Source of the DNA: an uncultured Fidelibacterota bacterium
GTDB taxonomy: Bacteria > Fidelibacterota > Marinisomatia > Marinisomatales > UBA1611
Direction: 5' to 3'
Assembly (NCBI GenBank): GCA_902559415.1
Contig: CACEHW010000002.1
Span: 1 to 61,918 of the forward strand
Length of the DNA: 61,918 nucleotides
Shown here: piece by piece, positions 15,195 to 38,552 of the stretch
How the letters are laid out: each line of letters starts with the position of its first letter
Position numbering within the stretch: the stretch's first letter is position 1
Notes under the pieces: model-generated
What the model was told of the DNA's origin: nothing
Database searches by the model: none
What the model saw: the letters and a program-made list of their open reading frames with translations, nothing else
Made by a program: the position numbers and the translations under genes

Positions 15195-15217
15195 AGTAAA
15201 AAACGTCCTAATAAATT

Positions 15218-15250
15218 AAAAAAATAGGCTCCCAAGATTTATGGGAGCCT
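15218..15250 (-). terminator. Rho-independent terminator after the 2581-aa gene
   Basis: Perfect 9-bp stem aggctccca (15226..15234) / tgggagcct (15242..15250). Read on the minus strand it is followed by a T-run (plus-strand aaaaaaat at 15218..15225). It lies 11 nt past the stop. Confidence 0.7.
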
Positions 15251-15260
15251 GTATTAAAAA

Positions 15261-18200
15261 CTACTTGAGAAGCACCATTTTTCTCACTTGTCTAAAATCA
15301 CCCGCTTGGATTGTGTAGATATACATCCCGGCAGATACACTTCTACCTAAATTATCTGTAGCGTCCCAGCGAATAGCTCTATACCCTACCTCTTGAAATT
15401 CATTAATAAGAGTACGAACCTCACGTCCCATAACATCATAGATCATGATCGATACAATCTGCGACTCTGGTATATCATAGTTAATTGTAGTAGTAGGATT
15501 AAACGGATTTGGATAATTCTGGTGTAAAGCAAAAGCCTTAGGAACCATTGACTCATCAACAGAAAGAAGTGGTCTAGCATCGATAAACAGGCTTCTAATC
15601 TCATCGCTCATAGTCGTATCCTGGCCATCTGTTGCGAAAACCAACCAGTCACATGTAATGGACTGAAATCCAGCAGTTTCAAGAAGCGCAATGGCAGATG
15701 AGTGAGGTATCATAAGCTCTGTAACTCCCACGTCTGCAGAATATAAAGCAGGTGTCTCAACAGAATATGGACCATTGAAAAGTAAGAATCCATATGCAAC
15801 TGAATCACCATCGACATCTTCACTCATTGTCCAAGAAACATCTATGGTAGCAGCCCCAGCAACAGATTCTGCTGTGATTATTACCTCAGCACTATCCTCA
15901 GGCGTAATTAATGAGAAAACACCAGGAGCATCATTTACTGAATTAATAAAAACTAAAACAGTATCATAAACGAATGAACCTGAACCATCTGTACCAACAA
16001 TGTGCAAGGTATCAACACCAAACATGTTGATCATTGGAGCGATTTCTAAATCATATCCCTCTACAGAAAAATCAAATATATCGTGGTTAGTAGCCATAAT
16101 ATCAAACTCCATGCTATCTCCATCAACATCTAAAAAGTAAGGCTCAGTCTCAGATCCAGCTAGGTTAACGATAAATGGCTCAGCATCTTCTTCAGCATAT
16201 ATGTCTGCAATTGGGACAATAATCTCGGGATCATCATTAACAGGAACTACATACAGCGAAACATAATAAGGTTCACTGTAAGAGGAACCGTCATACGCTG
16301 TAACAACCAGTGGAATATCACCAAAAAAGTTTTCATTTGGCACAATTCTAAATCCATACTGAATTGGAGATATTGTGTAATGATCTACAACCTGGGCTGT
16401 ATCATCAGCAGCAGATATATCCAGAGAAATTGATTCCAGTTGAGTATCATTATCTCTAATTACAAACTGATAGATAAAGACGTCTAGAGAGTCATCTTCT
16501 AATGTTTCAAAAGAAGGAGCATCAACTATCTCTGGAGTATCATCAACAGAATTAACAGTAACAACTAATGTGTCCATCACATCATCTCCTGATGGGTCAG
16601 TGGCAATTATAACGACAGTATCTTCACCGAAAAAATTCGGCGAAAATGATAAATGTAGTGAGTCTACTTCTACCATAGCAGATACCACGCCAGTTCCGTA
16701 AGTGAAAACATCAAAGTTCAGTGAATCACCATCGCTATCATAAAAATATGGATCAGTTTCTGAGCCCATTAGACTTATTACAATATCCTCAGAATCCTCA
16801 TCAACAACAATATCACTCGCGGCAGTTACCACAATTGGTGCGTCGTTCGATGGCTGAACTATAACCATAAGATTCCAAACATTACTAGAAGCCTCACCAT
16901 CGCTAATTGTTGATGGAACATACAATGTATCTGAAACATTCGGGTCTGCGATAACTTTGTAACCAGTGTCAATCATCTGGATGCTATAACCATCTCCATC
17001 TTCAAGGGCGAGCGTCAAGCTACTTTCTTCACTATCAATATCATAGTAGACAAAGTCCTCAATGCTGACTATAAAAGAGTCTTCTTCTTCAATTACAAAA
17101 TACGCGGCAGTTGTAATAACAGGAGCGTCATTCACACTTGCAACGCTGACTGCAATTGTATCCACAGCAGATTCCCCACTAGCATCAGTACCCATAATGT
17201 AAACCACATCATTGCCATATGCATCTGGATAAAAATCTAAATGCAGCGTATCACCCATAACCATTGGCATTACTAAATCAGTTCCAGCCGTGTAAGCCTC
17301 AAACACTAGATCATCACCATCGTTATCAATAAAGTAGGGTAATGTTTCAGATCCATATAAAGAAACAACTACGGGATCTGCATCCTCATCTACTGCAATA
17401 TCAGCAAGGGTGTTAACAATCTCAGGGACATCATTATTTCCAATGACATTTACAAACACCTCTTCAACATTACTCGATGCAATTCCATCGCTGAATGTTA
17501 TAGGAATAACAAATTGTCCAGAAAAGTTTTCAGATGGAGTTATGGTATATCCCTCTGCTATTTCAGTGGCTGTGTAGTTTCCTCCTACCGGGGTACGATT
17601 CCATGAAAATCCACCACCACTATTATTACCGGAATAACTAGTAAAAGTAACATCATAGTACTGCCCAGTATCAGTTAGATATAGTGACAAAACAGGAGTC
17701 CCAGCAACTTGCTGAACCAAAGCCTGATTAACATTATACCCTGATTGAAGTATAGCAGCGTTTAATGAGGTGTATTCTAAGCTAGAATAATTATCATCCT
17801 CTGTAGCACCCCATCTCCACATAGTTCCAGATGGGCCATTAGGGCTATAACTATCTTGAGAGTAGATATTGAATATCCCTTGATTGCTTGCTCTAGTGAG
17901 CCAGACAGTCTCTGATATTCGGTCTTGATTAACTTCTAATGTCCAATCTGCATTATTTTCTTTTGTAAAAGAGACAGCTTCAGAGGTTATTTCCAAGCTT
18001 AAAGAGCCTTGTTCAGTATCTGGATCTTCAACTACAAAATCACTGACTAATATATCAAAGGGAGTCTCTTCTAAAGTCTCAAAAGAAGCTGAATAAACTA
18101 CAACAGGAGCATCATTAACCGGGTTAACTGAGATCTGAACCTCAGCTGTATTTGAAGAGAGTTCACCATCGCTATTCATATAAGTAAACATATCTGAAGT

Positions 18201-21200
18201 TGTTTCACTTCCATTATGAACATAAGAAAAAGATTGATCTGTGTTTACTGTCAATATACCATGCATTGGCTGATCAACTACCATGATCTGCAGATCATCT
18301 CCATCAACGTCTGAATCATTGGATAATAGACCTGCGTTTACATCAGATACTACTGTACCACCCTCATCAACATTATACGCATCATTGACGGCTATTGGAG
18401 CATCATTTACAGGAGTTATATTAACAGAAAAAGTTACGGGAACATCATAACCACCATCATATGCATTTAGTGTAATCTCGGATGCTGCATCACCATTAAA
18501 GTTTAAATCTGATGCTTCTAACGTTAATATCTGACCAGATATTGATGCTGATACCTTATCACCACCTGTTTGAGAGAGGATTTCGTAGACTATTTGAGAA
18601 GGAGCCTGCTCTTCGTCATACATCTTGGTATACACATCAATCTCAACACTACCATCTTCCTCAAGTAATACTGGTTCAGTCCATGTCCAAACCGGAGCTG
18701 TATTTGCACCACAAATTGTAACAGTATTTGAAGTGTAACTTACTCCATCTACTGTTCCATCGTTTGGAGTAACAACTGCATGCCACTCTTCATCACAAGC
18801 GGTTGCTGCAGCGAGTACTGTTAAACCAGTTTGAGAAGACTCAAGAAAACCATTCTTATACCATGCTACCGATGCGATTACGTTATCACCATCAATATCT
18901 TCAGTTAAAAAACTTAAAGTTAGATCATTATCAATTGCTGGCACAGCTGGACTAATTGCCACATCCTTAACAATTGGGGCGTCATTTACGCCGTAGACAG
19001 ATAAATCAAATCCATAAACTGGACTACTTGCACCATCTTGATCTGTGGCAACAACATTAACTGATAAAATTCCATAGAAATTAGGATCAGGTATAAGACC
19101 GTCTCCATTTAAATTAACTGTAAAATTATCACCGTCAAGTACACTTATTGAAAAAGATTGCTCAGAACCGTCAGAATCTGAAATGGCAAAATCTGACGCT
19201 GCAAAAACGATCTCACTATCTTCAGCAATAGAACCAGGACCATTATATCTGGTAAGTGAAGGTGCATCATTAACATTTAAAACAGTTATAGAAACACTAA
19301 ATTGTGCAGATGTGCTACCATCAGAGATTGAGTAATTCACATCTAGAGTACCAACGAAATCTAATCCAGGAGTAATCGATTTTGAATCATCAGAAACTGT
19401 ATATCCAGTTCCCGCTTCAGCTAGAAGTGTAAAATCAAATGGGAAATCATTGTCAACATCCTCAACCACAAAATCATTTATTGATGCTGTGAAACTCTCT
19501 TCCTCAAGAACCTCACTCGGCCCGTTGTAGCTAACTACAACAGGGGCATCATTCACAGGATCAATTGCAATTGAAAAGAAAATATTCTTCTCGAATGGTT
19601 GACCTTCTGATTGATCAATGATCTTTAAAGAAATATCATTCTGATATAGGTTTTCATCATCAGGAGTACCAGATAGAATGACGCTGTAAACACCCTCGGC
19701 TTCTGTAATAGCACCAAGACTAACCCAGTTTGATGCAATACCTGCTAAAGAAGCTTCGTAGTTATCAACACTATTCCCGTCAATATCGGTCCATGTTACG
19801 CTCATTGAAAAAGCCGTTTCCTCTACTGCTTGACCATCAGCAACATTTGAGACCATAACCGCATCATTAACCGGGACAACATTGATCTCAACATTCATAG
19901 AATCCATTTTTTCACCATCACCAATAAAAGCCTTAACAGTTAAAGGGCCATTATAATTTGGATCAGGATTAATAGTCTTAGAATCAGAACCAGTAGAATA
20001 GTTGTCTCCGGGGATGAGCATTAGAGATAAGTCTATAGGACTGTTATCAGGATCAAAAACAACAAACTTATCTACAGATAGCTCTAGAGATTCATCTTCA
20101 TGCACATCGGTTGGACCCGTATAAGCTTCAATCATAGGAGCATCATTAACGGCTCCGATAGGAATGTAATAATACTCAATAAAACTTTCTTCGAAGCCCT
20201 CAGAGCGGTCTATAACTGAAAATGAAACATCATTCTGACCTAGGTTTACATCATCAGGAGTACCAGATACAATTGCGTTGTATATCCTATCTACGCCTTC
20301 TCCTGAGCTATATACGTTTGTCACATCAAGCCAGTTATCTGCAGGACCCCCAAGTAAAACTTCATAAACGCTAGCATCTTCAGTACCGTCTGGATCTTTC
20401 CAAGCTAGTGTAAGGCTATATAGCTCTTCTTCTGTTGCAGGTCCATTGTTGATTATGTCAGAGCCACTTGTAATTAGATAAGATGGGTCATTGACAGGAT
20501 TTACTTCCATTGGCACAATATAGATATTTGCTCCACCACTACCATCAAGGACTTCGACATGAACCTCTATAGCTCCGTTAAAATTTGGCGCTGTATTGAT
20601 CATACCTGGCATTTCTAAAGAGCGTATGTAATTCTCGCCTGGAAGAATATTCAAACTCATGTTAACAATGTCATTATCAGGATCATCTATTGAGAAATCA
20701 TATATCTCAAAAAAGAAACCCTCATCCTCATTAAAGCTAGGTGAACCATTGTAAGAAACAATTACAGGGTTGTCATTTACAGGGTCAATACTCACATCAA
20801 CAAATGCATCAGAGAATTCATTGCCATCATCAGCTCTAAGGGTCAACGTCCCGATAGACATTCCATAGAAATTCTCAGAAATTGCCGAAACAATTAGCTG
20901 ACTACCTTGAAAGTAAGCTGATATACTCTCTTCATTTGTATTACCCTGTACAGTTAATACTAACTGTGAGATAGCCTGCTCTGAGTCATTCACAAAACCA
21001 GCCATCTCAAAACGATTTCCTTCAGAATCTTCAGGAACGTGAATCATTGGTATCTCGTCACTCCATAATGGAGCTGTATTTCCGCCACATATTGTAATAA
21101 CATTCGAAGTAATCTCAACGCCTAATAATTCTCCATCACCAGGTACTACGGTAGCGTACCACTCATCTCCACATGCCGTAGCTGCAGCAGGTAAAACAGA

Positions 21201-23006
21201 ACCAACATTGTTAGTTATAACACCATTTTTAAACCAATTAATTTCTGTATTCTGTTCACTATCACCATCTGGATCAAAATAAACATAGGAAACTGTAATA
21301 TTGTCATTCTCATTCGGGACAGCAGGAACTAGTGCAACATCATAAGCCTGTGGCGGGCGATTTACAGCTATATATGCATATGCCGAACCAGAACCAAAAC
21401 CAAGGTTTCCACCCATATCTGTAGCACTGACTTTATAGTAGAGCGGGACATTAAAAGGAGCACCATCATCTACATAATCAGGAGAAGCTGAAAAACCAAC
21501 GAAGTTGCTAAAATTTGGTTGGAAAAGTGAATCAGGAGCCCTGTGAATGCTATAGTAATTAAAATCATCTACAACAATCGGATTCCAGCTTAATGTAACT
21601 ACAGTATTTTCTACGCTAGCGACTAAACCATTCGGAGCTGGAGGTGCAATATTATCGTAAGACCTACCAGTAGAATATTGTGAATGGAAGAATAAATTTG
21701 GGTTATCTGTATGCGCAACTACTTTAAAAGCGGTTGGTACTTCATCCTCTAAGGTAGTTACAACTGAGGCATATGGCGTATGACCAACCCACGGAATTGT
21801 ATTTAGATAATCCCAAGTACCAAGTTCACTAACCATAACATCATTACCTGAAGGAGTTACCAGAGATTCTCCTTGACCTGGGACTGTCCAGAAAAGCTCA
21901 CACATAGCACCACCACCATTTTCATAGTATTCTAAAACGACAGTATGTTGGCCTTCTGTTAGTTCAATTGAGCCGCTATGAGAAGTCGGTGGGAAATCAA
22001 ACCACTGGTCAATCACAACAGCGCCATCAACAAAAAGCCTCACACCATCATCCGAGTGAGTTCTGAAATCATATAATCCAGTAACAGGCGCATAGATATC
22101 GCCAGTCCACCTAACCTGAAAATCATCATTAACAGGTAATGGGTTTTGATCAAAATTTATATTAATCAATGAGTCCTCTCTTGTTAGTAGAAGCTCTCCA
22201 AATTCTGGAGATGTACCCGCTCCAGGACTAGAAAAATATTCACCGTAGAATACTCCATTGCCTGATGATGTGAAATCAGAAGGATGAGGGCTGTATCTAT
22301 AAATGCTGAATTCTGTAAAGTATGGTAAATCAATTAAATCACCAGGTTCCCAGGATAGCATCATCTGCTTGCCTTGGTCATTATTGATATCTGTTAGTGA
22401 AGTAATATGCGGGTTTTGATTAGGAGCTTCAAAGATATCTATTTCTTCGATTGTGATAACTCCCTCAGCATTCAGAGCAACCGTTAGGTAATTACCATCA
22501 CAGTCAACACCCCAACCATAATCATTACACTGCTCACAGTTATTATCATTAACACAGTAATCTTGAGCCCAGCCATCATCATAAACAATAAAATCTATAT
22601 CTAAGGGAGCATTAACCTGCCCTTCTAGGTGCACAACAAAGTCATAAGTCTCACCATAAACAAAAATACCATCTCCGTTAAAAATACCATCACTTGAATC
22701 ACCAAATACAACCTCACCGCCTTGAATCAGCACAGCCGGATCTATGCCTATATCAGATTCTAGATAAGCATCTAGCACTACATTGGATTCACCAAAGTCA
22801 AATCGAACCCCATCAGCATAATTAAGATCTGGGGAAACGACATTTACTGATAACCGGACTGTCGTATGGTTATCACCCTCTGCTCTGAAGGCATTTGCAC
22901 TTACAGAAGTACCCGTGAGATCTCGACTTCCTTGAGCAAAAATTCCTGAGATAAGTAGGGTGAAAATAAGAGAATTAGAAATTTTTTTGACATTATTCAT
23001 GTTCAA
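15261..23006 (-). CDS. Giant T9SS-sorted adhesin-like protein with a PA14 domain, FN3-like domain, many cadherin/Ig-like VNDAP-delimited repeats and a T9SS CTD
   Basis: 2581 aa with a signal peptide. PA14-like FQVRWTGDIYAPVTGLYDFRTHSDDGVRLFVDG. More than 15 repeat boundaries of the (P)VNDAP type. The C-terminus is NYPNPFNPTTTINY...GMYIYTIQAGDFRQVRKMVLLK. Confidence 0.9.
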   Translation of the reverse strand: MNMNNVKKISNSLIFTLLISGIFAQGSRDLTGTSVSANAFRAEGDNHTTVRLSVNVVSPDLNYADGVRFDFGESNVVLDAYLESDIGIDPAVLIQGGEVVFGDSSDGIFNGDGIFVYGETYDFVVHLEGQVNAPLDIDFIVYDDGWAQDYCVNDNNCEQCNDYGWGVDCDGNYLTVALNAEGVITIEEIDIFEAPNQNPHITSLTDINNDQGKQMMLSWEPGDLIDLPYFTEFSIYRYSPHPSDFTSSGNGVFYGEYFSSPGAGTSPEFGELLLTREDSLININFDQNPLPVNDDFQVRWTGDIYAPVTGLYDFRTHSDDGVRLFVDGAVVIDQWFDFPPTSHSGSIELTEGQHTVVLEYYENGGGAMCELFWTVPGQGESLVTPSGNDVMVSELGTWDYLNTIPWVGHTPYASVVTTLEDEVPTAFKVVAHTDNPNLFFHSQYSTGRSYDNIAPPAPNGLVASVENTVVTLSWNPIVVDDFNYYSIHRAPDSLFQPNFSNFVGFSASPDYVDDGAPFNVPLYYKVSATDMGGNLGFGSGSAYAYIAVNRPPQAYDVALVPAVPNENDNITVSYVYFDPDGDSEQNTEINWFKNGVITNNVGSVLPAAATACGDEWYATVVPGDGELLGVEITSNVITICGGNTAPLWSDEIPMIHVPEDSEGNRFEMAGFVNDSEQAISQLVLTVQGNTNEESISAYFQGSQLIVSAISENFYGMSIGTLTLRADDGNEFSDAFVDVSIDPVNDNPVIVSYNGSPSFNEDEGFFFEIYDFSIDDPDNDIVNMSLNILPGENYIRSLEMPGMINTAPNFNGAIEVHVEVLDGSGGANIYIVPMEVNPVNDPSYLITSGSDIINNGPATEEELYSLTLAWKDPDGTEDASVYEVLLGGPADNWLDVTNVYSSGEGVDRIYNAIVSGTPDDVNLGQNDVSFSVIDRSEGFEESFIEYYYIPIGAVNDAPMIEAYTGPTDVHEDESLELSVDKFVVFDPDNSPIDLSLMLIPGDNYSTGSDSKTINPDPNYNGPLTVKAFIGDGEKMDSMNVEINVVPVNDAVMVSNVADGQAVEETAFSMSVTWTDIDGNSVDNYEASLAGIASNWVSLGAITEAEGVYSVILSGTPDDENLYQNDISLKIIDQSEGQPFEKNIFFSIAIDPVNDAPVVVSYNGPSEVLEEESFTASINDFVVEDVDNDFPFDFTLLAEAGTGYTVSDDSKSITPGLDFVGTLDVNYSISDGSTSAQFSVSITVLNVNDAPSLTRYNGPGSIAEDSEIVFAASDFAISDSDGSEQSFSISVLDGDNFTVNLNGDGLIPDPNFYGILSVNVVATDQDGASSPVYGFDLSVYGVNDAPIVKDVAISPAVPAIDNDLTLSFLTEDIDGDNVIASVAWYKNGFLESSQTGLTVLAAATACDEEWHAVVTPNDGTVDGVSYTSNTVTICGANTAPVWTWTEPVLLEEDGSVEIDVYTKMYDEEQAPSQIVYEILSQTGGDKVSASISGQILTLEASDLNFNGDAASEITLNAYDGGYDVPVTFSVNITPVNDAPIAVNDAYNVDEGGTVVSDVNAGLLSNDSDVDGDDLQIMVVDQPMHGILTVNTDQSFSYVHNGSETTSDMFTYMNSDGELSSNTAEVQISVNPVNDAPVVVYSASFETLEETPFDILVSDFVVEDPDTEQGSLSLEITSEAVSFTKENNADWTLEVNQDRISETVWLTRASNQGIFNIYSQDSYSPNGPSGTMWRWGATEDDNYSSLEYTSLNAAILQSGYNVNQALVQQVAGTPVLSLYLTDTGQYYDVTFTSYSGNNSGGGFSWNRTPVGGNYTATEIAEGYTITPSENFSGQFVIPITFSDGIASSNVEEVFVNVIGNNDVPEIVNTLADIAVDEDADPVVVSLYGSETLPYFIDNDGDDLVFEAYTAGTDLVMPMVMGDTLHLDFYPDAYGNDVVYIMGTDASGESAVDTIAVSVASVNDAPVITTAAYFVIEEEDSFIVSIEDFVYYDIDSEESSLTLALEDGDGYSIQMIDTGYKVIADPNVSDTLYVPSTISDGEASSNVWNLMVIVQPSNDAPIVVTAASDIVVDEDSEDIVISLMGSETDPYFYDSDGDSLNFDVFTYGTGVVSAMVEVDSLHLSFSPNFFGEDTVVIIATDPSGDDVMDTLVVTVNSVDDTPEIVDAPSFETLEDDSLDVFIYQFVIRDNDTQLESISLDISAADDTAQVVDHYTISPIQYGFRIVPNENFFGDIPLVVTAYDGSSYSEPYYVSLYVVPVNDDPEIIVPIADIYAEEDAEPFIVNLAGSETEPYFLDVDGDSMEFDIMATNHDIFDFSVEGYDLEIAPMINMFGVDTLHIVGTDGSGSFVYDTVLVFINSVNDAPGVFSLITPEDSAEVIITAESVAGAATIDVSWTMSEDVDGDSVAYGFLLFNGPYSVETPALYSADVGVTELMIPHSSAIALLETAGFQSITCDWLVFATDGQDTTMSDEIRSLFIDARPLLSVDESMVPKAFALHQNYPNPFNPTTTINYDIPESQIVSIMIYDVMGREVRTLINEFQEVGYRAIRWDATDNLGRSVSAGMYIYTIQAGDFRQVRKMVLLK

Positions 23007-23174: not shown

Positions 23175-23831
23175 TTAGTAAGGTCCATATAGTTCCATTA
23201 TCCTTTTGGTCAGCGTCTCTTTTGTATGTCTAAATGATTCGGTGTTTTCCATTATTGCTTCAAATGCCTGATGTATCTCTTGTGTGTTTTCAACAATCAT
23301 CGTTTTATTATCTTTAATATCATCATCGAATTTTATTAATTGCTCTATAGCATTTTCAATAAGCTCTTCACGCTCTTCAAGCTTTTTGCGAAAAAGCTCA
23401 ATTCTTACATCAATCTCTGCAGATAATTCATCATAGTTACTGAAAATCAGATCATTGTTCTCTGATATTAGCTCTTGAGCCTCGTATATATCATTCTCAC
23501 GACTAATAGTTCTTATCTCATTCTCCCTTAGCCTATTCAGAAACTCTTCATTTTGCTTTCTGTCCTTATCAGCAACTGATCTAATAGAAAACTGAACTTT
23601 ATTTTTATCATAAGATGCGATCTTCCCGCTTCCATCCTCAACACCACCGATAAATGTAGTAATCTCCCCTAGCCTATTGTATGTTGATATGAAACCACCA
23701 TTTTGGTTGTCAACTACCCTAATAGAATTAACCGTAATATCACCCAAATTGCTTTTTTGTGAGGCGGTAAACATTACAAAGCTCACCGAAAGACAAATTG
23801 CAGTTATAAAACCATGAAAATATTGATTCAT
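23175..23831 (-). CDS. Anchor-family paralog P1: conserved N-terminal hydrophobic anchor, a short beta module and a long coiled coil
   Basis: The ATG at 23831 is preceded by GGAGA (ttGGAGAtaaatATG), so the TTG at 23843 in the track is probably not the start. N-terminus MNQYFHGFITAICLSVSFVMFTAS. The C-terminal half is heptad- and charge-rich. Confidence 0.7.
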   Translation of the reverse strand: MNQYFHGFITAICLSVSFVMFTASQKSNLGDITVNSIRVVDNQNGGFISTYNRLGEITTFIGGVEDGSGKIASYDKNKVQFSIRSVADKDRKQNEEFLNRLRENEIRTISRENDIYEAQELISENNDLIFSNYDELSAEIDVRIELFRKKLEEREELIENAIEQLIKFDDDIKDNKTMIVENTQEIHQAFEAIMENTESFRHTKETLTKRIMELYGPY

Positions 23832-23873
23832 ATTTATCTCCAACTATTTAATTTATTCAAAAGTTTACTGATC

Positions 23874-24482
23874 TTATTTAACCAAGGTATTAACAACACC
23901 CTTACCGGATTGATCTACTCCGACTACTGCTCTTGAGGATCCGATATTGTTATTTACAGATAATAAACCGGCGTCATTCTGATCAGTGCCAAGGAATATA
24001 GTTTCAGAACCTAACCCGTTATAGGTCTTTACCTGACCTCCATTGATTTTATTGGTACCAACAAAAACAGTTTCTTTTCCTCGAAGGTTAAAAAAAGTCA
24101 TTCCCCCACCACCTAGAGATAATGAGGACATACGCAAAGAAGATACCCCATTACGATCATTTAAAAGGAAACTACCTCCACTATTTCCATCAACACCAAT
24201 ATTAATAATTTCTTTTCCTTTTAAGCTTCTTAGTACTAATGCTGAGCCTTTTCTTTTGGATGAAAGTTCGATACCAGCTTTCTTACTTTTTAAAGACTTT
24301 AGCCAGAAATATGAATCCATCCTATCACTACCAATCTCACCAACTTGATTTCCGGCATTATCAACTATAGTGATTTTTTGGACTGTTAGATTATCTATTT
24401 TTCGCTTTTTTGCACCGACAAACAAAAAAAAACTAGTTGTTAAAATAACCGCAGAAATAAATCCAGTCAAATACTGATTCAT
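23874..24482 (-). CDS. Anchor-family paralog P2: N-terminal anchor plus Gly/Asn-rich beta-hairpin-like repeats
   Basis: aaGGAGtatatATG. N-terminus MNQYLTGFISAVILTTSFFLFVGAKK. The body repeats roughly as G-x-G-x-h-x-h-x-N-x-x-G-x-E-x-h-x-h-G. Confidence 0.7.
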   Translation of the reverse strand: MNQYLTGFISAVILTTSFFLFVGAKKRKIDNLTVQKITIVDNAGNQVGEIGSDRMDSYFWLKSLKSKKAGIELSSKRKGSALVLRSLKGKEIINIGVDGNSGGSFLLNDRNGVSSLRMSSLSLGGGGMTFFNLRGKETVFVGTNKINGGQVKTYNGLGSETIFLGTDQNDAGLLSVNNNIGSSRAVVGVDQSGKGVVNTLVK

Positions 24483-24543: not shown

Positions 24544-25818
24544 TCAAGCAATTTCAAGTGGCTTCATTTTTGAAGAAACACTTTCAAAAAGAGCAGTCTC
24601 AAAGTCAACGTTGCTCTTATAAAAATCACCAAATACAGATTCCCAAATTGAGCTTTCTTCCATACATAAATAAAAGAATAGATCATTATGCCATGCTCTG
24701 AATTCATTGTAGACATTCGAAAATATCTCTGCCTTGACTTCTTTTGTATAAGATGATTTACCTACCGCATCTACCATTGGTATTTGGAGAACTTTACTTT
24801 TTAAACCTGCAGATCTGAGTTTATTAATTGCTGGTTTTATAAATGTGAGTGTTCCCATAGAGATCATTGCGATTTGGTGAGGTTCAAACATTGACATTAC
24901 TTTGTTAACAATATTTTTATAATCATTTTCATATCCCTCATAATAAACGATAGGATGAAAATGAAAACCAACAAGGACTCCTTTATCAGATAAACTTTTT
25001 GCACAGCTTAGTCTCTGATCTAAACTAGCAGTCCCATGCTCTTCATGATCAATAAATATCTGAGGATTTAAAGACCAACTAACAAAAACATTGTCCGGTA
25101 TATCTGTTTTTAACAAGTGGGCTATATTCTTTGATTTTGTTTTGAATTCTAAAATAATATTAGAATTCTCCCTCGCAAAATCTAACTGAGCATCTAGCAC
25201 CCCTTCTCTATTGCCTACAGCTAGTGAATCTGAAGACTGACCAGATCCAATGTGATAATTTTTATTTGGATCCAGAGGTATATTTGAGAGCTTTTCTTTC
25301 AGGTTCTTATCGATAGAAATTTTACCGTCGGTGTAAAATGTCTGAATACTGCAATAACTACAACCAAGGCTACATCCCTGGACAGCATCAATCGTCATTA
25401 AGTTACAACAAACAGTCTTCTCTGATGCGACAGGACACATACCAAAGACCTCATTATCCTGCTCACTTACTTGAATTTTTCTAGGAACAGGCCTTGGTAA
25501 ATTCTTTGTATCAACAGTATCATATTTAATTTTAGATGTTTTCAGTGAATTCCATTCACTCTTGACATGAGATATAACATCTTTTTTGGTCAATGGCCTG
25601 TTTTGAGAGATTTCAAAATTCTCTATACATTTTTTAACTCCAAATTCATCCCACATATAAAAATCTCTAGCTATAATTGAAAGCTGTCTAAGGTCTTGAT
25701 ATGAAAATCTATATTTTAAACTTAGATCTACAATATCTTGCCTATCAACGATATCCAAGTTCAGAAATACTTTGTCATTTTCAATTTGAGAAATTTTACT
25801 TTTAATACTACTATTCAT
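24544..25818 (-). CDS. Radical SAM protein of the spore-photoproduct-lyase (SplB / COG1533-like) family, with an N-terminal extension of about 130 aa
   Basis: CX3CX2C cluster motif GCSLGCSYCS. Downstream blocks (ILEFKTKS...HLL, SWSLNP...DHEEHGTASLDQRL, VGFHFHPIVYYEGYENDY, ISMGTLTF) are collinear with my recollection of B. subtilis SplB. Confidence 0.65.
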   Translation of the reverse strand: MNSSIKSKISQIENDKVFLNLDIVDRQDIVDLSLKYRFSYQDLRQLSIIARDFYMWDEFGVKKCIENFEISQNRPLTKKDVISHVKSEWNSLKTSKIKYDTVDTKNLPRPVPRKIQVSEQDNEVFGMCPVASEKTVCCNLMTIDAVQGCSLGCSYCSIQTFYTDGKISIDKNLKEKLSNIPLDPNKNYHIGSGQSSDSLAVGNREGVLDAQLDFARENSNIILEFKTKSKNIAHLLKTDIPDNVFVSWSLNPQIFIDHEEHGTASLDQRLSCAKSLSDKGVLVGFHFHPIVYYEGYENDYKNIVNKVMSMFEPHQIAMISMGTLTFIKPAINKLRSAGLKSKVLQIPMVDAVGKSSYTKEVKAEIFSNVYNEFRAWHNDLFFYLCMEESSIWESVFGDFYKSNVDFETALFESVSSKMKPLEIA

Positions 25819-25835
25819 CTAAGCCATCACTTTAG

Positions 25836-26330
25836 CTATTTTGCTAAAACCCTTGTCTCTAAGACAGGTAGGTCATTTGTTTCTTCAAGAATATGTACGG
25901 TTTTAACATCTTTAATTATGGTGCCGTAACCATCTGTGAGTGTTATTTCAAATTTATATTCACCTGGCCCAGCATTGAAAGCAACCCTAGGAGAACTTGG
26001 GTTTGGCTCTAAATAAACAGTTTTTCCGGCTACCTGTTTCCATTCAAAAATTAATTTATCTACCTTGTTAGGATCGTAGGAACCACCAGCATCAAGGATA
26101 ACAGTCGCTATATTTGTTTCTGGTCTGCCGTCGTGCTTTATTCTAACCTTAAAAATTTTATCATCGATCGCCTTAGCTTTTTCCCGATCTTCTTTTTGCT
26201 TTTTAAGTTCAGCAACCTTGCGCTCTTTTTTTGCGATTTTCTCTTCTTCAAAAACTTTTTCTAGCTCTATTAAACCAAGCAAAGCAGCAACACATAAAAC
26301 TAGAAATAGTACGGCTGTTCTTTCATTCAT
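25836..26330 (-). CDS. Membrane-anchored protein with a charged helix and a PKD-like Ig domain
   Basis: N-terminal TM AVLFLVLCVAALLGLI, a K/E-rich helix, then VILDAGGSYDPNKVDKLIFEWKQVAG...GEYKFEITLTDGYG (PKD-like pattern). Its stop lies 17 nt before the radical SAM start. Confidence 0.6.
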   Translation of the reverse strand: MNERTAVLFLVLCVAALLGLIELEKVFEEEKIAKKERKVAELKKQKEDREKAKAIDDKIFKVRIKHDGRPETNIATVILDAGGSYDPNKVDKLIFEWKQVAGKTVYLEPNPSSPRVAFNAGPGEYKFEITLTDGYGTIIKDVKTVHILEETNDLPVLETRVLAK

Positions 26331-26410: not shown

Positions 26411-26551
26411 TTACTGCAGTATTCTACTAAAATCAAACATGTGTTTCAATAAGATTGCCATCCCAACATCATAAATAGGTTTAGCATCAGGAGCGCTATA
26501 ATTCCATAGAATTATCCCCAAAAGCCAAACTAAGTATTTTACTTTATCCAT
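26411..26551 (-). CDS. Possible unannotated small membrane protein (46 aa)
   Basis: The ATG at 26551 lies 5 nt after the stop of the Cas4-like gene. Hand translation is MDKVKYLVWLLGIILWNYSAPDAKPIYDVGMAILLKHMFDFSRILQ*. It is below the ORF-track size cut-off. Confidence 0.3.
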   Translation of the reverse strand: MDKVKYLVWLLGIILWNYSAPDAKPIYDVGMAILLKHMFDFSRILQ

Positions 26552-26556
26552 ATAAT

Positions 26557-27495
26557 TTAATTACCTATTTCTTTTTCATCATAACATATTGTCTGAAAGC
26601 TGCAATAACTGCAGGGGTAACTTTCTCTATCCTCACTTGCCAATGGGAATAGGTCAATTTCAGTTTTATTATTATCAACATCGGTCAACAATTCTTTCAT
26701 TGAATCAATACTATTTTCAATAAATCCCTTTGCCGAATCGATTAATCTATTTGTAGGCTTTACCTTAACAGGTAATTGTTGATTAAGATAAACATCAAAG
26801 AGTCTGATTAGATTTAAATCAACATCCCATTTTTGTTTAGCATATAATGCATAAATCGCCAATTGCACTTCATTTTCTTTCGCAACTTTGCCTGTTTTCC
26901 AATCATAAATATAGACCCGCTCACCATGTCTAATAGCAAAATCAAGCTTAACCCAAAGCTTAGCCCCATGAACCTCAAAAGAATCTAGGTCTTCAATCGC
27001 TAGCCACTGGGTATCAGACATAGTTTGAATAAAACGGTATGAATCTGAAGCAAAAAAACCATCAACACTATTTACCATTAGATCTCTAATGTCTAACAGC
27101 TCTTGATCAGACAGGCTCTTTTTATAATAATGCTCAAATAAATTAGCTTTCCACTTAGGACTGTCTTCCCACTCTTTATTTTTAGATTGAGCCCATGACT
27201 GCTTAAAGTTTTTAATAACATTTTCCTTAGACTTTTCTATGTCTGCTTTTCTTCCATAGCGCAAGATTTTAAGAGTTCTTTCCACCTCATCATGTACGAT
27301 AGAACCTGCGAGCATTGGTAGAGAAGTCATTTTATTTAGCATGTATAATTTTTTACTTAACTCATCTGCATCTTTATTCCAACCGCCCCAACTACCGTAG
27401 TAAGAATAGTAGTACTTACGCTTACAAGTATTAAAAGCATTATCCCTTGAGAAACTCCAGGAAAAATCATTTTTGAATTCTTTTTTATCAGCCAT
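26557..27495 (-). CDS. Cas4/AddB-type PD-(D/E)XK nuclease with a predicted 4-Cys Fe-S cluster
   Basis: N-terminal WSFSRDNAFNTCKRKYYYSY (single Cys), GSIVHDEVE, LDFAI...IYDWKTGK (D...D-x-K), QLAIYALYA (QxxxY), and C-terminal CSYCSFQTIC (CX2CX5C). Confidence 0.75.
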   Translation of the reverse strand: MADKKEFKNDFSWSFSRDNAFNTCKRKYYYSYYGSWGGWNKDADELSKKLYMLNKMTSLPMLAGSIVHDEVERTLKILRYGRKADIEKSKENVIKNFKQSWAQSKNKEWEDSPKWKANLFEHYYKKSLSDQELLDIRDLMVNSVDGFFASDSYRFIQTMSDTQWLAIEDLDSFEVHGAKLWVKLDFAIRHGERVYIYDWKTGKVAKENEVQLAIYALYAKQKWDVDLNLIRLFDVYLNQQLPVKVKPTNRLIDSAKGFIENSIDSMKELLTDVDNNKTEIDLFPLASEDRESYPCSYCSFQTICYDEKEIGN

Positions 27496-27497
27496 TT

Positions 27498-28205
27498 TTA
27501 GTTAAAACTATCTAACATGGTAATAATTTCATTTTTCATATAAGGCATGGAAAACGTTTCTACTCTATCATCTTTTAGCTGCGCAACCAACTGTCTGGCT
27601 ACTTGTATCCCATAATATTTTTCAAGGATGTATCTATATAGAGATAATTGCAATGCGTAGTGATTATACTTACAATCATCAATCTTACAACTCTCTTTTT
27701 TGATTCCTTTTTTACCATTAAATGAACTCTTATCGATACGTTTAGAAGTCTTCCAATCAATTAGTACATACTCACCTGTTTTTTTATCCATCATCAGTAT
27801 ATCAATTGTTCCTGCTATGCCAAGTTCTTTACTGTAAACTATAACTTCAGGAAAAGTTTCAATGTTAGGCTTGGAGATATAAGCACCAATCCATTTTGCA
27901 GCAACAATAGATTTGATATCCTTAGGGTCCGTTCCATCTTTTATCCAATTTTCAATTTCAAGATGAACCTCAGTGCCATATTCTCTAGCGAATTGCCACT
28001 GCTTCATAATTGACTCAGGTGTTTCACCAAAGTATTTAGGGACATTATTTACGAGATGATTTGCAATTTTAATTTCATCAAAGGGCTCAAAGAAGCTCCC
28101 TACAAAGGAAGTAACGCTGGTGAATGAAAAATCTGGCTGATCTAAGAGCTTGTACTCATGCTTATCGATTTCTAAGGTAATGTCATTATTATTAATTTTA
28201 TTCAT
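27498..28205 (-). CDS. PD-(D/E)XK (RecB-family/phage-exonuclease-like) nuclease lacking the Fe-S cysteines
   Basis: GTEVHLEIENW, GTIDILMMDKKTGEYVLIDWKTSK (D...D-x-K) and YALQLSLYRY (QxxxY). There is a 2-nt gap to each neighbouring gene. Confidence 0.7.
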   Translation of the reverse strand: MNKINNNDITLEIDKHEYKLLDQPDFSFTSVTSFVGSFFEPFDEIKIANHLVNNVPKYFGETPESIMKQWQFAREYGTEVHLEIENWIKDGTDPKDIKSIVAAKWIGAYISKPNIETFPEVIVYSKELGIAGTIDILMMDKKTGEYVLIDWKTSKRIDKSSFNGKKGIKKESCKIDDCKYNHYALQLSLYRYILEKYYGIQVARQLVAQLKDDRVETFSMPYMKNEIITMLDSFN

Positions 28206-28207
28206 AT

Positions 28208-28825
28208 TTAAGATTTTTTACCTGATTTAAACCACCCTCTATTACCAAATTTATCATACAATAAAACAGAACCATTTCCACTATTATTTGTACCATACTT
28301 TCCTGTAATTCTTCCATCCTTATTAAAAGTAGTTAGGGATTGAATCAAATGAAGAGATTCTTTACCTTGATCATCGAATAAGCTAAGCTTACCATAACCA
28401 CCATCATTACCACCTAATAAAGAAGTTAGTTTGGAGTTATTATTAAAAGTTGATAGTGTACCCTCACCCGATCTATTTTCGCCTAAAGAAGAGGTTTTAA
28501 TACCATTTTCATTAAAAGTATTTAGGTTTCCACCATTTTTCAAATAAACGCTACCTTTTCCTTCTTTACTTGAGTTTATACTAACTACCTCTACATTTTC
28601 AGAGTTATATATTTTTATTTTCCCATTTTCTATTGAAATAAGTTTATCACCTTCTTTATCTACAATCTTCAAAATCCCACCGAATCCATTTTTATCAGTA
28701 ATCGTAACTGAATTCGCAATAATATCACCAAAATGCTGAGATCCTCCAAACTGAGCTCCCATAAAAATAAAAACAGAACAAAGTAAAAGTGCAGATGTTG
28801 TAAATCCTTTTAAATAATTAACCAT
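28208..28825 (-). CDS. Anchor-family paralog P3: N-terminal anchor plus Gly/Asn-rich beta-hairpin-like repeats
   Basis: The ATG at 28825 is preceded by GGAGA (ttGGAGAaaaacATG), so the TTG at 28837 is probably not the start. N-terminus MVNYLKGFTTSALLLCSVFIFMGAQ. The repeats resemble those of P2. Confidence 0.7.
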   Translation of the reverse strand: MVNYLKGFTTSALLLCSVFIFMGAQFGGSQHFGDIIANSVTITDKNGFGGILKIVDKEGDKLISIENGKIKIYNSENVEVVSINSSKEGKGSVYLKNGGNLNTFNENGIKTSSLGENRSGEGTLSTFNNNSKLTSLLGGNDGGYGKLSLFDDQGKESLHLIQSLTTFNKDGRITGKYGTNNSGNGSVLLYDKFGNRGWFKSGKKS

Positions 28826-28861
28826 GTTTTTCTCCAAACAGTTTTCAATAGTTATGAAATA

Positions 28862-29137
28862 TTATATTTTTTTCACTTCGTCATATGAATAATTATTGTC
28901 TTTATCCTCTATAGAGTCACCGTGCTCATGTAATGATATTTTATAACCATCAACGACATCAATCTCCTTTATTCCATCTATGTGCATTTTTTTACTTTTG
29001 TATTCTGGTATTACTTTCGCTTTTGCTTTTGCCTCTTTTACATCACTCGCTACCACAAAATAGTTAGTGTGCGACTCATAAAAACCACTAGAAACATTAT
29101 CATCATAAAAACCTGCATGGACCAAGTATAACTTCAT
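28862..29137 (-). CDS. Small DUF1543-like protein
   Basis: 91 aa. MKLYLVHAGFYD...ESHTNYFVVASDVKEAK...HIDGIKEIDVVDGYKISL matches my recollection of the DUF1543 pattern (E-x-H-D/T...hhha, hIDgw.ev..vdGYkI). Unverified. Confidence 0.45.
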   Translation of the reverse strand: MKLYLVHAGFYDDNVSSGFYESHTNYFVVASDVKEAKAKAKVIPEYKSKKMHIDGIKEIDVVDGYKISLHEHGDSIEDKDNNYSYDEVKKI

Positions 29138-38174: not shown

Positions 38175-38552
38175 CTATTGGTAATGAACTTCACTTACTT
38201 TACCGATTACAGACCAACCATAATTGCCGTAAGCATTATTTACTATTATCGAACCATTTCCATTAAAACCATCTCCATACCAAGCACCTAAGTTTACAAC
38301 TTTATAGCCCTTATTATTCTTAATTTGAATAGAGCCCGCCTCGCGCACGGTTGAACCAACGAAGAGTATTTCTTCTTTTTCTTTATTATAAAAACGTATT
38401 GATTCTGAATTGATAACAACCTTCCCTTTATCATCTTCAATAATAATAGGAAGGTTAACCTCTTCACTAGAACTACTATCACTGCTAATAAAAAAATACA
38501 AACTAGTGGCAAGGCACAAAGCGGTAAAAAACCCTGTAAAATATTGTCTCAT
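38175..38552 (-). CDS. Anchor-family paralog P4: N-terminal anchor plus a short Gly/Asn-rich beta module
   Basis: gaaAGGAattgtATG. N-terminus MRQYFTGFFTALCLATSLYFFISS, then IIIEDDKGKVVI...IQIKNNKGYKVVNLG...GNGSIIVNN. Confidence 0.7.
   Translation of the reverse strand: MRQYFTGFFTALCLATSLYFFISSDSSSSEEVNLPIIIEDDKGKVVINSESIRFYNKEKEEILFVGSTVREAGSIQIKNNKGYKVVNLGAWYGDGFNGNGSIIVNNAYGNYGWSVIGKVSEVHYQ

What the first reader, a model, noticed from the sequence alone, without database searches (positions are those of the whole stretch)
26411..29137. Tight operon of a DUF1543-like protein, anchor-family P3, a PD-(D/E)XK nuclease, a Cas4/AddB-like Fe-S nuclease and a 46-aa ORF: a candidate uncharacterised DNA-targeting module
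Four minus-strand genes are packed with gaps of 24, 2 and 2 nt, and a fifth mini-ORF follows 5 nt after the last stop. This arrangement implies co-translation. The combination is two different RecB-superfamily nucleases together with a membrane-anchored repeat protein and a tiny DUF1543-like protein. No helicase, ATPase, methyltransferase or recombinase partner is present. This does not match any repair or defence operon I know: AddAB/AdnAB need helicase domains, and Cas4 normally sits with cas1/cas2. The operon lies in a mosaic accessory stretch between giant adhesin genes and housekeeping genes. A membrane-tethered sensor plus nuclease effectors is the sort of architecture seen in anti-phage systems, but that reading is inference.
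Basis: partly seen in the sequence, partly recalled or inferred. Interest (0 to 1): 0.7.

Follow-up and report, generated by a model that had tools for sequence, protein, structure and literature searches.

The report
Two solo DNA exonucleases sitting together
The five tightly packed genes are real, but they are independently conserved chromosomal genes of a marine Marinimicrobia (SAR406) bacterium, including two ordinary RecB-type DNA exonucleases, that lie side by side only in one narrow lineage; this is not a new anti-phage or DNA-targeting system.

Summary
Observation confirmed. Five minus-strand ORFs lie at the stated coordinates with gaps of 24, 2, 2 and 5 nt, and the domain calls are right: DUF1543; a membrane-anchored repeat protein; a Cys-less PD-(D/E)XK nuclease ("nuc235"); a four-cysteine Cas4/AddB-type nuclease ("nuc312"); and a conserved 46-aa protein.

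- The set co-occurs only in one narrow Marinimicrobia clade (nuc235 at 68% identity or more). There the whole neighbourhood of more than 12 genes is syntenic and diverges in step.
- nuc312 belongs to a family found in at least 581 species genomes across many phyla. It is a solo gene with no conserved partner.
- In sister Marinimicrobia clades nuc235 is followed by a DnaQ-like exonuclease or by no nuclease at all.
- DUF1543 sits in four unrelated contexts elsewhere.
- The anchor protein is one of four scattered paralogues in the window.
- Gaps of 5 nt or less occur at 36% of same-strand junctions in this window.
- PADLOC gives only generic Cas4-like hits, and there are no defence, mobile-element or CRISPR features.

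One lineage (L135) keeps just the nuclease pair adjacent in different flanks, so a functional pairing of the two nucleases remains a minority possibility.

Most likely these are housekeeping ssDNA-end and flap exonucleases, one MGME1-like and one Cas4/EXO5-like. Interest is low.

The parts
28862..29137 (-). 91-aa DUF1543 protein, the first gene of the same-strand run. An AAGGAG lies 7 nt upstream and an 82-nt AT-rich spacer precedes it. It is independently conserved across Marinimicrobia.
   Evidence: Pfam PF07566 3.4e-9, 36.8 bits against a cut-off of 22.9. The search found 352 homologues. Homologues at 58-69% identity sit in four unrelated contexts without nucleases. Sequence.
28208..28837 (-). 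209-aa membrane-anchored all-beta Gly-rich repeat protein, probably starting at the ATG at 28825. It is one of four paralogues in the window and is the fastest-evolving gene of the run.
   Evidence: No Pfam, NCBIfam, PHROG or PADLOC match. Paralogues at 23874-24482, 23175-23843 and 38175-38552. The AF2 model has low confidence (pLDDT 54.6) and shows an N-terminal helix followed by beta hairpins. Only 118 relatives among 1.84 billion representatives. Identity within the clade is 42-98%.
27498..28205 (-). 235-aa Cys-less PD-(D/E)XK exonuclease ('nuc235'). It has an MGME1-like / phage-exonuclease-like fold and the catalytic motifs H81/E83, D135, D150-x-K152 and Q186-x3-Y190.
   Evidence: PDDEXK_1 1.2e-4. 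phrog_298 exonuclease 9.5e-24. Invariant residues in alignment A2. AF2 pLDDT 86. Best PDB fold is human MGME1, E 3e-6 and TM 0.56, followed by Cas4, AdnA, EXO5, RecE and AddA. Viral exonucleases reach TM up to 0.8.
26557..27495 (-). 312-aa Cas4/AddB-nuclease-type PD-(D/E)XK nuclease with a four-Cys Fe-S site ('nuc312'). It belongs to a widespread solo family with the signature YGxWGGW and is the slowest-evolving gene of the run.
   Evidence: PDDEXK_1 8.1e-18 over the full length. Invariant residues C24, E121, H122, D185, D198, K200, Q211, Y215, C295, C298 and C304. At least 581 species genomes in many phyla. No conserved partner. Closest solved sequence is ACE1 9iac, E 3.9e-8, C-terminal half only. 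Identity within the clade is 78-99%.
26411..26551 (-). 46-aa conserved small hydrophobic protein with the motif WN(F/Y)(G/S)xPxAKPxYDV...LKH. It is specific to this clade.
   Evidence: The reading frame and motif are conserved in 20 distinct sequences from related contigs. Two copies carry an internal stop (L005, L106). No family match.
24544..26330 (-). Downstream syntenic neighbours, not part of a module: a 164-aa PKD-like membrane protein (25836-26330) and a 424-aa spore-photoproduct-lyase-family radical SAM protein (24544-25818).
   Evidence: Pfam SPL 1.1e-16 and a weak K319L-like PKD match. They are conserved with the run in the close clade only. They are absent next to either nuclease elsewhere.

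Best explanation
The run is a lineage-specific juxtaposition, probably co-transcribed in this lineage, of independently conserved chromosomal genes in a streamlined Marinimicrobia/SAR406 genome. It is not a dedicated multi-gene system.

The two nucleases are stand-alone members of the RecB/PD-(D/E)XK superfamily.
- nuc312 is a Cas4/AddB-nuclease/EXO5-type enzyme. Its Fe-S-stabilised domain most likely binds a free single-stranded DNA end and degrades or nicks it. This is inferred from the family.
- nuc235 is an MGME1-like / phage-exonuclease-like enzyme that most likely trims ssDNA ends and flaps. This is inferred from the fold and motifs.

Each most likely works on its own in chromosomal DNA maintenance: flap and end processing, and resection for recombinational repair.

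The DUF1543 protein, the membrane-anchored repeat protein and the 46-aa protein are unrelated passengers in the same dense minus-strand gene run.

Shown: gene identities, conserved catalytic and Fe-S residues, phyletic and neighbourhood patterns. Inferred: substrates, polarity, a repair role and co-transcription.
For: 1. Co-occurrence is confined to one clade. All 33 contigs with nuc235 at 68% identity or more keep the order MTase-DUF805-DUF1543-anchor-nuc235-nuc312-mini-PKD-SPL wherever sequence is available. Identities of flanking and run genes co-vary (Spearman 0.73-0.94). This points to vertical inheritance of a whole chromosomal neighbourhood.
2. nuc312 is solo elsewhere. It has different neighbours at 51-58% identity within Marinimicrobia. 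In 77 of the 80 best species-genome loci, drawn from at least 581 matches in many phyla, no homologue of nuc235, DUF1543 or the anchor lies within 10 kb. There is no cross-phylum conserved neighbour; Latescibacterota loci have aroA upstream and dnaE nearby.
3. At 49-55% identity nuc235 is followed by an RNase_T/DnaQ-like gene in about 40 loci. In 5 loci it is followed directly by a transporter.
4. DUF1543 homologues at 58-69% identity lie in four unrelated contexts.
5. The anchor protein has four scattered paralogues in the window.
6. Tight gaps are the genome's norm.
7. PADLOC hits on the two nucleases are only to individual Cas4-like nuclease models, and 17 neighbouring proteins give no PADLOC hit at all. 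There are no CRISPR arrays, no flanking repeats and no GC anomaly. nuc312 has no phage match and only three remote plasmid matches. Relatives of nuc235 in viral contigs and phage genomes reach at most 39% identity, and at most 35% over most of its length.
8. nuc312 is the most conserved gene of the region (mean 86% identity), which does not look like an arms race. This agrees with the published picture of solo Cas4-family genes as vertically inherited 'regular' genes enriched in small-genome environmental microbes (PMC5704561).
9. Catalytic and Fe-S residues are invariant, and nuc235 has an MGME1-like fold.
Against: The nuc235-to-nuc312 junction stays at -4 to +8 nt in all 32 close-clade contigs where both genes are present. 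One more distant lineage (L135; nuc235 51%, nuc312 64%) keeps just these two genes adjacent, about 80-100 nt apart, with entirely different flanks. In sister clades the gene after nuc235 is again an exonuclease. These patterns hint at some selective value in co-expressing nuc235 with a second nuclease.

No biochemical data exist for either family. No transcript data were available. Whole-genome presence/absence could not be examined because only 10-kb flanks were seen.
Confidence: 0.72

Rival explanations
1. Only the two nucleases form a functional pair: a helicase-less, AddAB-like two-nuclease machine. The Cys-less nuc235 would resemble the AddA nuclease or MGME1, and the Fe-S nuc312 would resemble the AddB nuclease or EXO5. 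Together they would process DNA ends or flaps with complementary polarity in a streamlined genome. The DUF1543, anchor and mini-ORF genes would be passengers.
For: - The junction is -4 to +8 nt in all 32 close-clade contigs where both genes are present.
- The pair alone is adjacent in L135, with different flanks.
- nuc235's weak NCBIfam match is to the AddA nuclease domain, and nuc312 has the AddB-type C-x2-C-x5-C site.
- In sister clades nuc235 is followed by another exonuclease of the RNase_T type.
Against: - In most Marinimicrobia lineages sampled the two genes are not adjacent.
- nuc312 occurs in at least 581 species of many phyla without nuc235 within 10 kb.
- nuc235 also occurs with no nuclease neighbour at all.
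- The RNase_T gene occurs without nuc235 (L017).
- Clade A and L135 may share one ancestral adjacency, so this may be a single event.
Confidence: 0.18
2. One reading: an uncharacterised anti-phage or anti-plasmid system in which the membrane-anchored repeat protein senses infection and the two nucleases act as effectors.
For: nuc312 matches the PADLOC models for pAgo-associated Cas4-like nucleases (3.3e-17), and nuc235 matches Cas4 models weakly. The genes are tightly packed. Nucleases are common defence effectors (general knowledge).
Against: - The PADLOC hits are to individual nuclease models, scoring about the same as the generic Pfam PDDEXK_1 model (61 against 65.7 bits).
- There is no pAgo, cas gene, CRISPR array or other defence gene nearby.
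- The components do not co-occur outside one clade.
- The neighbourhood is inherited vertically and is always present in that clade.
- nuc312 is the slowest-evolving gene of the region.
- The anchor is one of four paralogues scattered among unrelated genes.
Confidence: 0.04
3. Remnant of a prophage or mobile-element recombination module, that is, a phage exonuclease plus accessory genes domesticated in the chromosome.
For: nuc235 hits phrog_298 'exonuclease' at 9.5e-24. Its fold matches many viral exonucleases with TM up to 0.8. At least 348 viral contigs encode relatives.
Against: - Viral relatives are at most 35% identical, whereas cellular marine relatives are 49-97% identical.
- No integrase, SSAP, structural genes, att-like repeats or tRNA lie nearby; the only tRNA is 18 kb away.
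- nuc312 has no phage match.
- Synteny with ordinary (non-mobile-element) chromosomal flanking genes is stable.
Confidence: 0.03

Closest known systems
Solo Cas4-family / PF12705 (PDDEXK_1) stand-alone nucleases (Hudaiberdiev et al. 2017, PMC5704561)
   Same: nuc312 is a single-domain nuclease of about 300 aa. It has RecB motifs and four Fe-S cysteines and is encoded outside CRISPR-cas. It appears vertically inherited and occurs in small-genome environmental bacteria.
   Different: It scores below the Cas4 equivalog cut-off (21 against 65 bits). It forms its own subfamily with an N-terminal FSWSxSR...C...YGxWGGW signature. No member has been characterised.
[quoted passage not shown]
   Same: It is the closest solved sequence to nuc312 (E 3.9e-8). 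PADLOC's Aga_Cas4-like_Nuc model aligns over the full length. ACE1 is an ssDNA nuclease with a fold like the nuclease domains of bacterial DNA-repair complexes (abstract).
   Different: ACE1 is defined by co-encoding and heterodimerising with a long-A pAgo. No pAgo gene flanks nuc312 here, and no pAgo-sized gene recurs next to it in the 80 genome loci. The sequence match covers only the C-terminal half.
AddB / AdnAB nuclease domains (AddAB, AdnAB helicase-nucleases)
   Same: nuc312 has the same C-x(n)-C-x2-C-x5-C Fe-S staple around a RecB nuclease core. nuc235 resembles the Cys-less AddA nuclease domain.
   Different: There is no helicase or ATPase domain in either protein or in adjacent genes. 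The proteins are 235 and 312 aa, against more than 1,000 aa for AddA and AddB.
MGME1 (human mitochondrial genome maintenance exonuclease 1) and phage PD-(D/E)XK exonucleases (phrog_298)
   Same: MGME1 is the best structural match to the nuc235 model (E 3e-6, TM 0.56). Both are Cys-less RecB-type nucleases of similar size. Viral exonucleases match with TM up to 0.8, and phrog_298 matches at 9.5e-24.
   Different: Sequence identity is only about 15% to MGME1 and at most 35% to viral relatives. nuc235 is a bacterial chromosomal gene. No SSAP partner is present, unlike phage Exo/Beta-type modules. Activity is untested.

Membership tests
PD-(D/E)XK nuclease superfamily, Pfam PDDEXK_1 (PF12705): nuc312 | Score above the Pfam gathering cut-off, with conserved motifs (D, D/ExK, QxxxY) | tested here: met
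   65.7 bits against a cut-off of 22, covering residues 12-304. D185, D198, K200, Q211 and Y215 are invariant in 16 sequences down to 31% identity.
PD-(D/E)XK nuclease superfamily, Pfam PDDEXK_1 (PF12705): nuc235 | Score above the Pfam gathering cut-off, with conserved motifs | tested here: met
   22.5 bits against a cut-off of 22, which is marginal. Support comes from phrog_298 at 9.5e-24, invariant H81, E83, D135, D150, K152, Q186 and Y190, and the fold match to MGME1, Cas4 and AddA.
Cas4/AddB-type Fe-S nucleases | Four conserved cysteines: one N-terminal plus C-x2-C-x5-C at the C-terminus | tested here: met
   C24, C295, C298 and C304 are invariant in nuc312. nuc235 has no such cysteines. 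Cluster binding itself is not testable here.
CRISPR-associated Cas4 (TIGR00372 / PF01930) | Score above the equivalog cut-off | tested here: not met
   nuc312 scores 21.2 bits and nuc235 27.9 bits, against a cut-off of 65.
CRISPR-associated Cas4 (TIGR00372 / PF01930) | Adjacent to cas1/cas2 and a CRISPR array | tested here: not met
   No cas models hit the neighbours. There is no CRISPR-like array in the window.
AddAB / AdnAB / RecBCD helicase-nucleases | Nuclease domain fused to, or partnered with, a UvrD-like helicase/ATPase | tested here: not met
   The proteins are 235 and 312 aa single-domain proteins. No helicase Pfam hit occurs in the adjacent genes.
APACE1 (long-A pAgo + ACE1) | Cas4-family nuclease co-encoded with a long-A Argonaute | tested here: not met
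   The immediate neighbours are nuc235 and the 46-aa ORF. No recurrent large neighbour other than a multihaem-cytochrome-like protein and aroA/dnaE appears in the 80 genome loci.
DUF1543 (PF07566) | Score above the Pfam gathering cut-off | tested here: met
   36.8 bits against a cut-off of 22.9. The function of the family is unknown, and no paper in the held library mentions it.
Known anti-phage defence systems (PADLOC-DB 2.0) | System-specific protein models, with partner genes, in the neighbourhood | tested here: not met
   Only stand-alone Cas4-like nuclease models hit the two nucleases. The other 17 proteins scanned gave nothing.
Conserved multi-gene module (operon-level family) | The same gene set co-occurs across lineages independently of the surrounding synteny | tested here: not met
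   The full set is found only where the flanks are also syntenic. Each component is found alone elsewhere. Only the nuclease pair recurs once in other flanks (L135).

The most novel reading that the evidence does not exclude
nuc235 (MGME1/AddA-nuclease-like, no Fe-S) and nuc312 (AddB/EXO5/Cas4-like, Fe-S) act together as a minimal, helicase-independent two-nuclease DNA-end or flap-processing pair in streamlined marine Marinimicrobia. nuc235 would be a 'hub' nuclease that different lineages co-express with alternative partner exonucleases: Cas4-like here, DnaQ-like in sister clades.
Probability: 0.15. Interest if true: 0.45.

Novelty: new member of a known kind. Interest (0 to 1): 0.2.

Why it matters
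The main value is as a cautionary result. In compact genomes with long same-strand gene runs, 2-nt junctions and a suggestive mix of domains do not define a system, and neighbourhood conservation has to be tested beyond the local synteny block.

Two smaller points may be useful.
- The YGxWGGW Fe-S nuclease is an uncharacterised solo Cas4-like family. It is highly conserved and very widespread (at least 581 species, many phyla), and could be a general repair nuclease of environmental bacteria.
- nuc235 is a bacterial chromosomal relative of MGME1 and phage exonucleases that is repeatedly found next to a second exonuclease.

Neither point changes current understanding unless biochemistry shows a partnership.

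Tried and rejected
- **Defence system:** PADLOC on 19 proteins gave only generic Cas4-like hits. Rejected.
- **CRISPR or mobile element:** there are no arrays, no meaningful flanking direct or inverted repeats, no nearby tRNA, no Rfam hits other than one tRNA and no GC anomaly.
- **Promoter and terminator scan:** counts were not different from shuffles, so this says nothing about the operon structure.
- **Conserved partner of nuc312 across phyla:** neighbour clustering found only within-phylum synteny (aroA/dnaE in Latescibacterota; a multihaem-cytochrome-like gene in some Planctomycetota). Apparent 979-989-aa 'fusions' in L044 and L078 were artefacts of my crude ORF caller in high-GC DNA.
- **nuc235 + RNase_T as an obligatory pair:** rejected. 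Five loci lack the RNase_T gene, and L017 has the RNase_T gene without nuc235.
- **L006 upstream fragment as a truncated nuc235:** it is not one.
- **Structure of the anchor protein:** the AF2 model had low confidence (pLDDT 54.6), so I ran no fold search. Pfam scans of longer relatives gave only spurious repeat-driven hits.
- **Solved-structure sequence searches:** nothing significant was found for DUF1543 (weak 2qsd, E 0.13) or for nuc235.
- **Literature on DUF1543:** none in the held library.
- **Exact-sequence look-up of the window's nuc312:** not on record.


Full report
**1. Observation**

The gaps are 24, 2, 2 and 5 nt (junction sequences).

The anchor gene probably starts at the ATG at 28825 rather than the TTG at 28837. 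A GGAG lies 8 nt upstream, and all homologues align from residue 5. That makes the first gap 36 nt.

The domain calls hold.
- The 91-aa protein is DUF1543 (3.4e-9, above cut-off).
- nuc312 matches PDDEXK_1 over its full length (8e-18).
- nuc235 matches PDDEXK_1 marginally but matches the phage 'exonuclease' family phrog_298 strongly (9.5e-24).
- The 209-aa protein and the 46-aa ORF match no family.

All five are conserved as proteins in related contigs, so they are real genes. The 46-aa ORF keeps its frame and a WN(F/Y)(G/S)xPxAKPxYDV...LKH motif in 20 distinct relatives; two copies carry an internal stop.

**2. Organism and setting**

Named homologues come from Candidatus Marinimicrobia / Neomarinimicrobiota / Fidelibacterota MAGs and marine metagenomes. 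The window is a low-GC (about 0.33), dense genome, roughly 90% coding by the ORF list used. Nearly all genes from 10.8 to 39.8 kb lie on the minus strand.

Of 50 same-strand neighbour pairs in the window, the median gap is 25.5 nt and 36% are 5 nt or less. Other runs of three or four abutting or overlapping genes exist. The tight packing is therefore this genome's norm and is not evidence of functional coupling. The locus shows no GC anomaly, no flanking repeats, no CRISPR-like array and no nearby tRNA.

**3. Do the genes co-occur?**

*(a) Close clade.* All 33 contigs in which nuc235 is 68-97% identical keep the same order wherever sequence is available: small-molecule methyltransferase, DUF805, DUF1543, anchor, nuc235, nuc312, mini-ORF, PKD-like protein, SPL-family radical SAM protein, anchor paralogues, giant adhesin. 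Per-contig identities of the flanking genes track those of nuc235 (Spearman 0.73-0.94). A whole chromosomal neighbourhood is therefore being inherited vertically. The stretch is not a mosaic accessory island.

*(b) nuc312 beyond that clade.* At 51-58% identity within Marinimicrobia it is a solo gene in three different contexts. A scan of one genome per species found at least 581 genomes encoding the family, defined by a YGxWGGW signature. They span Latescibacterota, Planctomycetota, Lentisphaerota, Sumerlaeota, Verrucomicrobiota, Acidobacteriota, Myxococcota and even archaeal MAGs. Among the 80 best loci, only the three at 87-88% identity have nuc235, DUF1543 or an anchor homologue within 10 kb. 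Neighbour clustering found no partner conserved across phyla. In Latescibacterota the gene follows aroA and lies near dnaE.

*(c) nuc235 beyond the clade.* At 49-55% identity about 40 loci have nuc235 followed, often with overlap, by a 296-aa RNase_T/DnaQ-like exonuclease gene in a housekeeping context. Five loci have lost that gene, so nuc235 abuts a transporter. One MAG contig has the RNase_T gene without nuc235.

*(d) DUF1543.* Homologues at 58-69% identity lie in four unrelated contexts (next to an esterase, a cupin, an MBL-fold protein, and HMGL/GH5 genes) and never next to nucleases.

*(e) The anchor protein.* It is one of four paralogues scattered through the window (28208, 23874, 23175, 38175). 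They share an N-terminal transmembrane helix. The family is small (118 relatives among 1.84 billion representatives) and is the fastest-evolving gene in the run (42-98% identity). Its AF2 model has low confidence and shows an N-terminal helix followed by beta hairpins.

*(f) One exception.* In contig L135 (nuc235 51%, nuc312 64%) just the two nuclease genes are adjacent, about 80-100 nt apart, between a Por-tail protein and a macro-domain gene.

**4. What the nucleases are**

nuc312 has invariant C24, E121, H122, D185, D198, K200, Q211, Y215, C295, C298 and C304 down to 31% identity. This is a RecB nuclease core with the C-x(n)-C-x2-C-x5-C Fe-S arrangement of AddB and Cas4 (family knowledge). 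It scores far below the Cas4 equivalog cut-off. Its closest solved relative by sequence is the pAgo-associated ACE1, covering the C-terminal half only (E 3.9e-8; PMC12094033). There is no pAgo here. It has no match in 50,697 phage genomes and only three remote plasmid matches. It is the most conserved gene of the region (mean 86% identity).

nuc235 has invariant H81, E83, D135, D150, K152, Q186 and Y190 and no cysteine cluster. A confident AF2 model (pLDDT 86) is most similar to human MGME1 (E 3e-6, TM 0.56), then to Cas4, AdnA, EXO5, RecE and AddA. It also resembles many viral PD-(D/E)XK exonucleases (TM up to 0.8). Viral-contig relatives are at most 35% identical, and GenBank phage matches reach 39% only over partial stretches. 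Cellular marine relatives are 49-97% identical.

**5. Defence?**

PADLOC models hit only the two nucleases, and only as generic Cas4-like nucleases. The best hit, Aga_Cas4-like_Nuc at 61 bits, scores about the same as the generic Pfam model. The other 17 proteins scanned in and around the run gave nothing.

The methyltransferase two genes upstream is a small-molecule O-methyltransferase type, not a DNA methyltransferase. The published phylogenomics of Cas4 describes solo Cas4-family genes as vertically inherited 'regular' genes. They are over-represented in small-genome environmental microbes and are suggested to have uncharacterised repair or defence roles. It also notes that the pfam12705 branch is not CRISPR-associated (PMC5704561). 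The present data fit that description.

**6. Best explanation (confidence about 0.7)**

This is a lineage-specific juxtaposition of independently conserved chromosomal genes in a compact genome, probably co-transcribed. The two nucleases are stand-alone enzymes that act on ssDNA ends and flaps: one is of the Cas4/EXO5/AddB-nuclease type with Fe-S, the other MGME1-like without it. They most likely serve DNA replication and repair, each on its own. DUF1543, the anchor protein and the mini-protein are unrelated passengers.

Gene identities, motif conservation and neighbourhood statistics are shown. Substrates, polarity and a repair role are inferred from family knowledge.

**7. Rivals**

- *The two nucleases alone form a helicase-less AddAB-like pair (about 0.18).* Support: the junction of -4 to +8 nt in all 32 close-clade contigs where both genes are present, the L135 pair, and the recurrence of a second exonuclease after nuc235. 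Against: the solo distributions described above.
- *Anti-phage module with a membrane sensor (about 0.04).*
- *Prophage-module remnant (about 0.03).*

The last two are contradicted by the evidence in sections 3 and 5.

**8. Novelty and score**

These are new members of known kinds: solo Cas4-family / PD-(D/E)XK nucleases, a DUF1543 protein, and a lineage-specific membrane protein family. The finding as framed, a new DNA-targeting module, is not supported. Interest is 0.2.

The most novel reading not excluded is a two-nuclease partnership, with nuc235 as a hub that pairs with alternative exonucleases (probability about 0.15, interest about 0.45 if true).

Noticed in passing
L007 10001-11564; L008 305-1868; about 40 of loci L118-L170: In sister Marinimicrobia clades the nuc235 orthologue (49-55% identity) is followed by a 296-aa RNase_T/DnaQ-like exonuclease gene; in L007 and L008 the two genes overlap. 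The C-terminal extension of that protein, about 100 aa, is unassigned. The partner gene is deleted in L133, L139, L146, L155 and L159, and it occurs without nuc235 in L017.
   Followed up: partly
window 26411-26551: The 46-aa ORF is a genuinely conserved small hydrophobic protein with the motif WN(F/Y)(G/S)xPxAKPxYDV...LKH. I found it only in the close clade, always between nuc312 and the PKD-like gene. Two relatives (L005, L106) carry an in-frame stop.
   Followed up: partly
window 28208-28837, 23874-24482, 23175-23843, 38175-38552: Four paralogues of an unannotated family share an N-terminal 'M(N/R)QY(L/F)xGF' transmembrane anchor followed by Gly-rich beta repeats, or a coiled-coil-like tail in 23175-23843. 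Two of them sit next to giant Por-secretion adhesins. The TTG starts at 28837 and 23843 are probably four codons too early.
   Followed up: partly
window 24544-25818 and 25836-26330: A spore-photoproduct-lyase-family radical SAM protein with an N-terminal extension of about 140 aa is preceded, 17 nt upstream, by a 164-aa membrane-anchored PKD-like protein. The pair is conserved throughout the close clade. The function of SPL-family proteins in non-sporulating marine bacteria is unclear.
   Followed up: no
L019-L037 (Latescibacterota genomes), around position 10001: In Latescibacterota the nuc312-family gene lies directly downstream of aroA (EPSP synthase) and next to a divergently oriented dnaE. 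This arrangement is conserved in about 18 species. It is a housekeeping context for this uncharacterised nuclease family.
   Followed up: partly
L017 35-931 and L018 10001-10885 (MAG MED647, Neomarinimicrobiota): One MAG carries two diverged paralogues of the nuc312 family (46% and 45% identity to the window protein) on different contigs.
   Followed up: no
L041, L047, L057, L044, L078 (Planctomycetota): The nuc312-family gene is followed by a protein of about 730 aa with several CxxCH motifs, which looks like a multihaem cytochrome. Apparent fusions in L044 and L078 were ORF-calling artefacts.
   Followed up: partly
window 11643-23006: Two giant adhesin-like genes (1183 and 2581 aa) lie just downstream of the anchor paralogues. 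The 1183-aa protein has cadherin-like, Big_9 and Laminin_G_3 domains and a Por secretion tail; relatives of the larger gene have PA14, cadherin-like and Big_9 domains and a weak Por-tail match. This arrangement is conserved in the clade.
   Followed up: no
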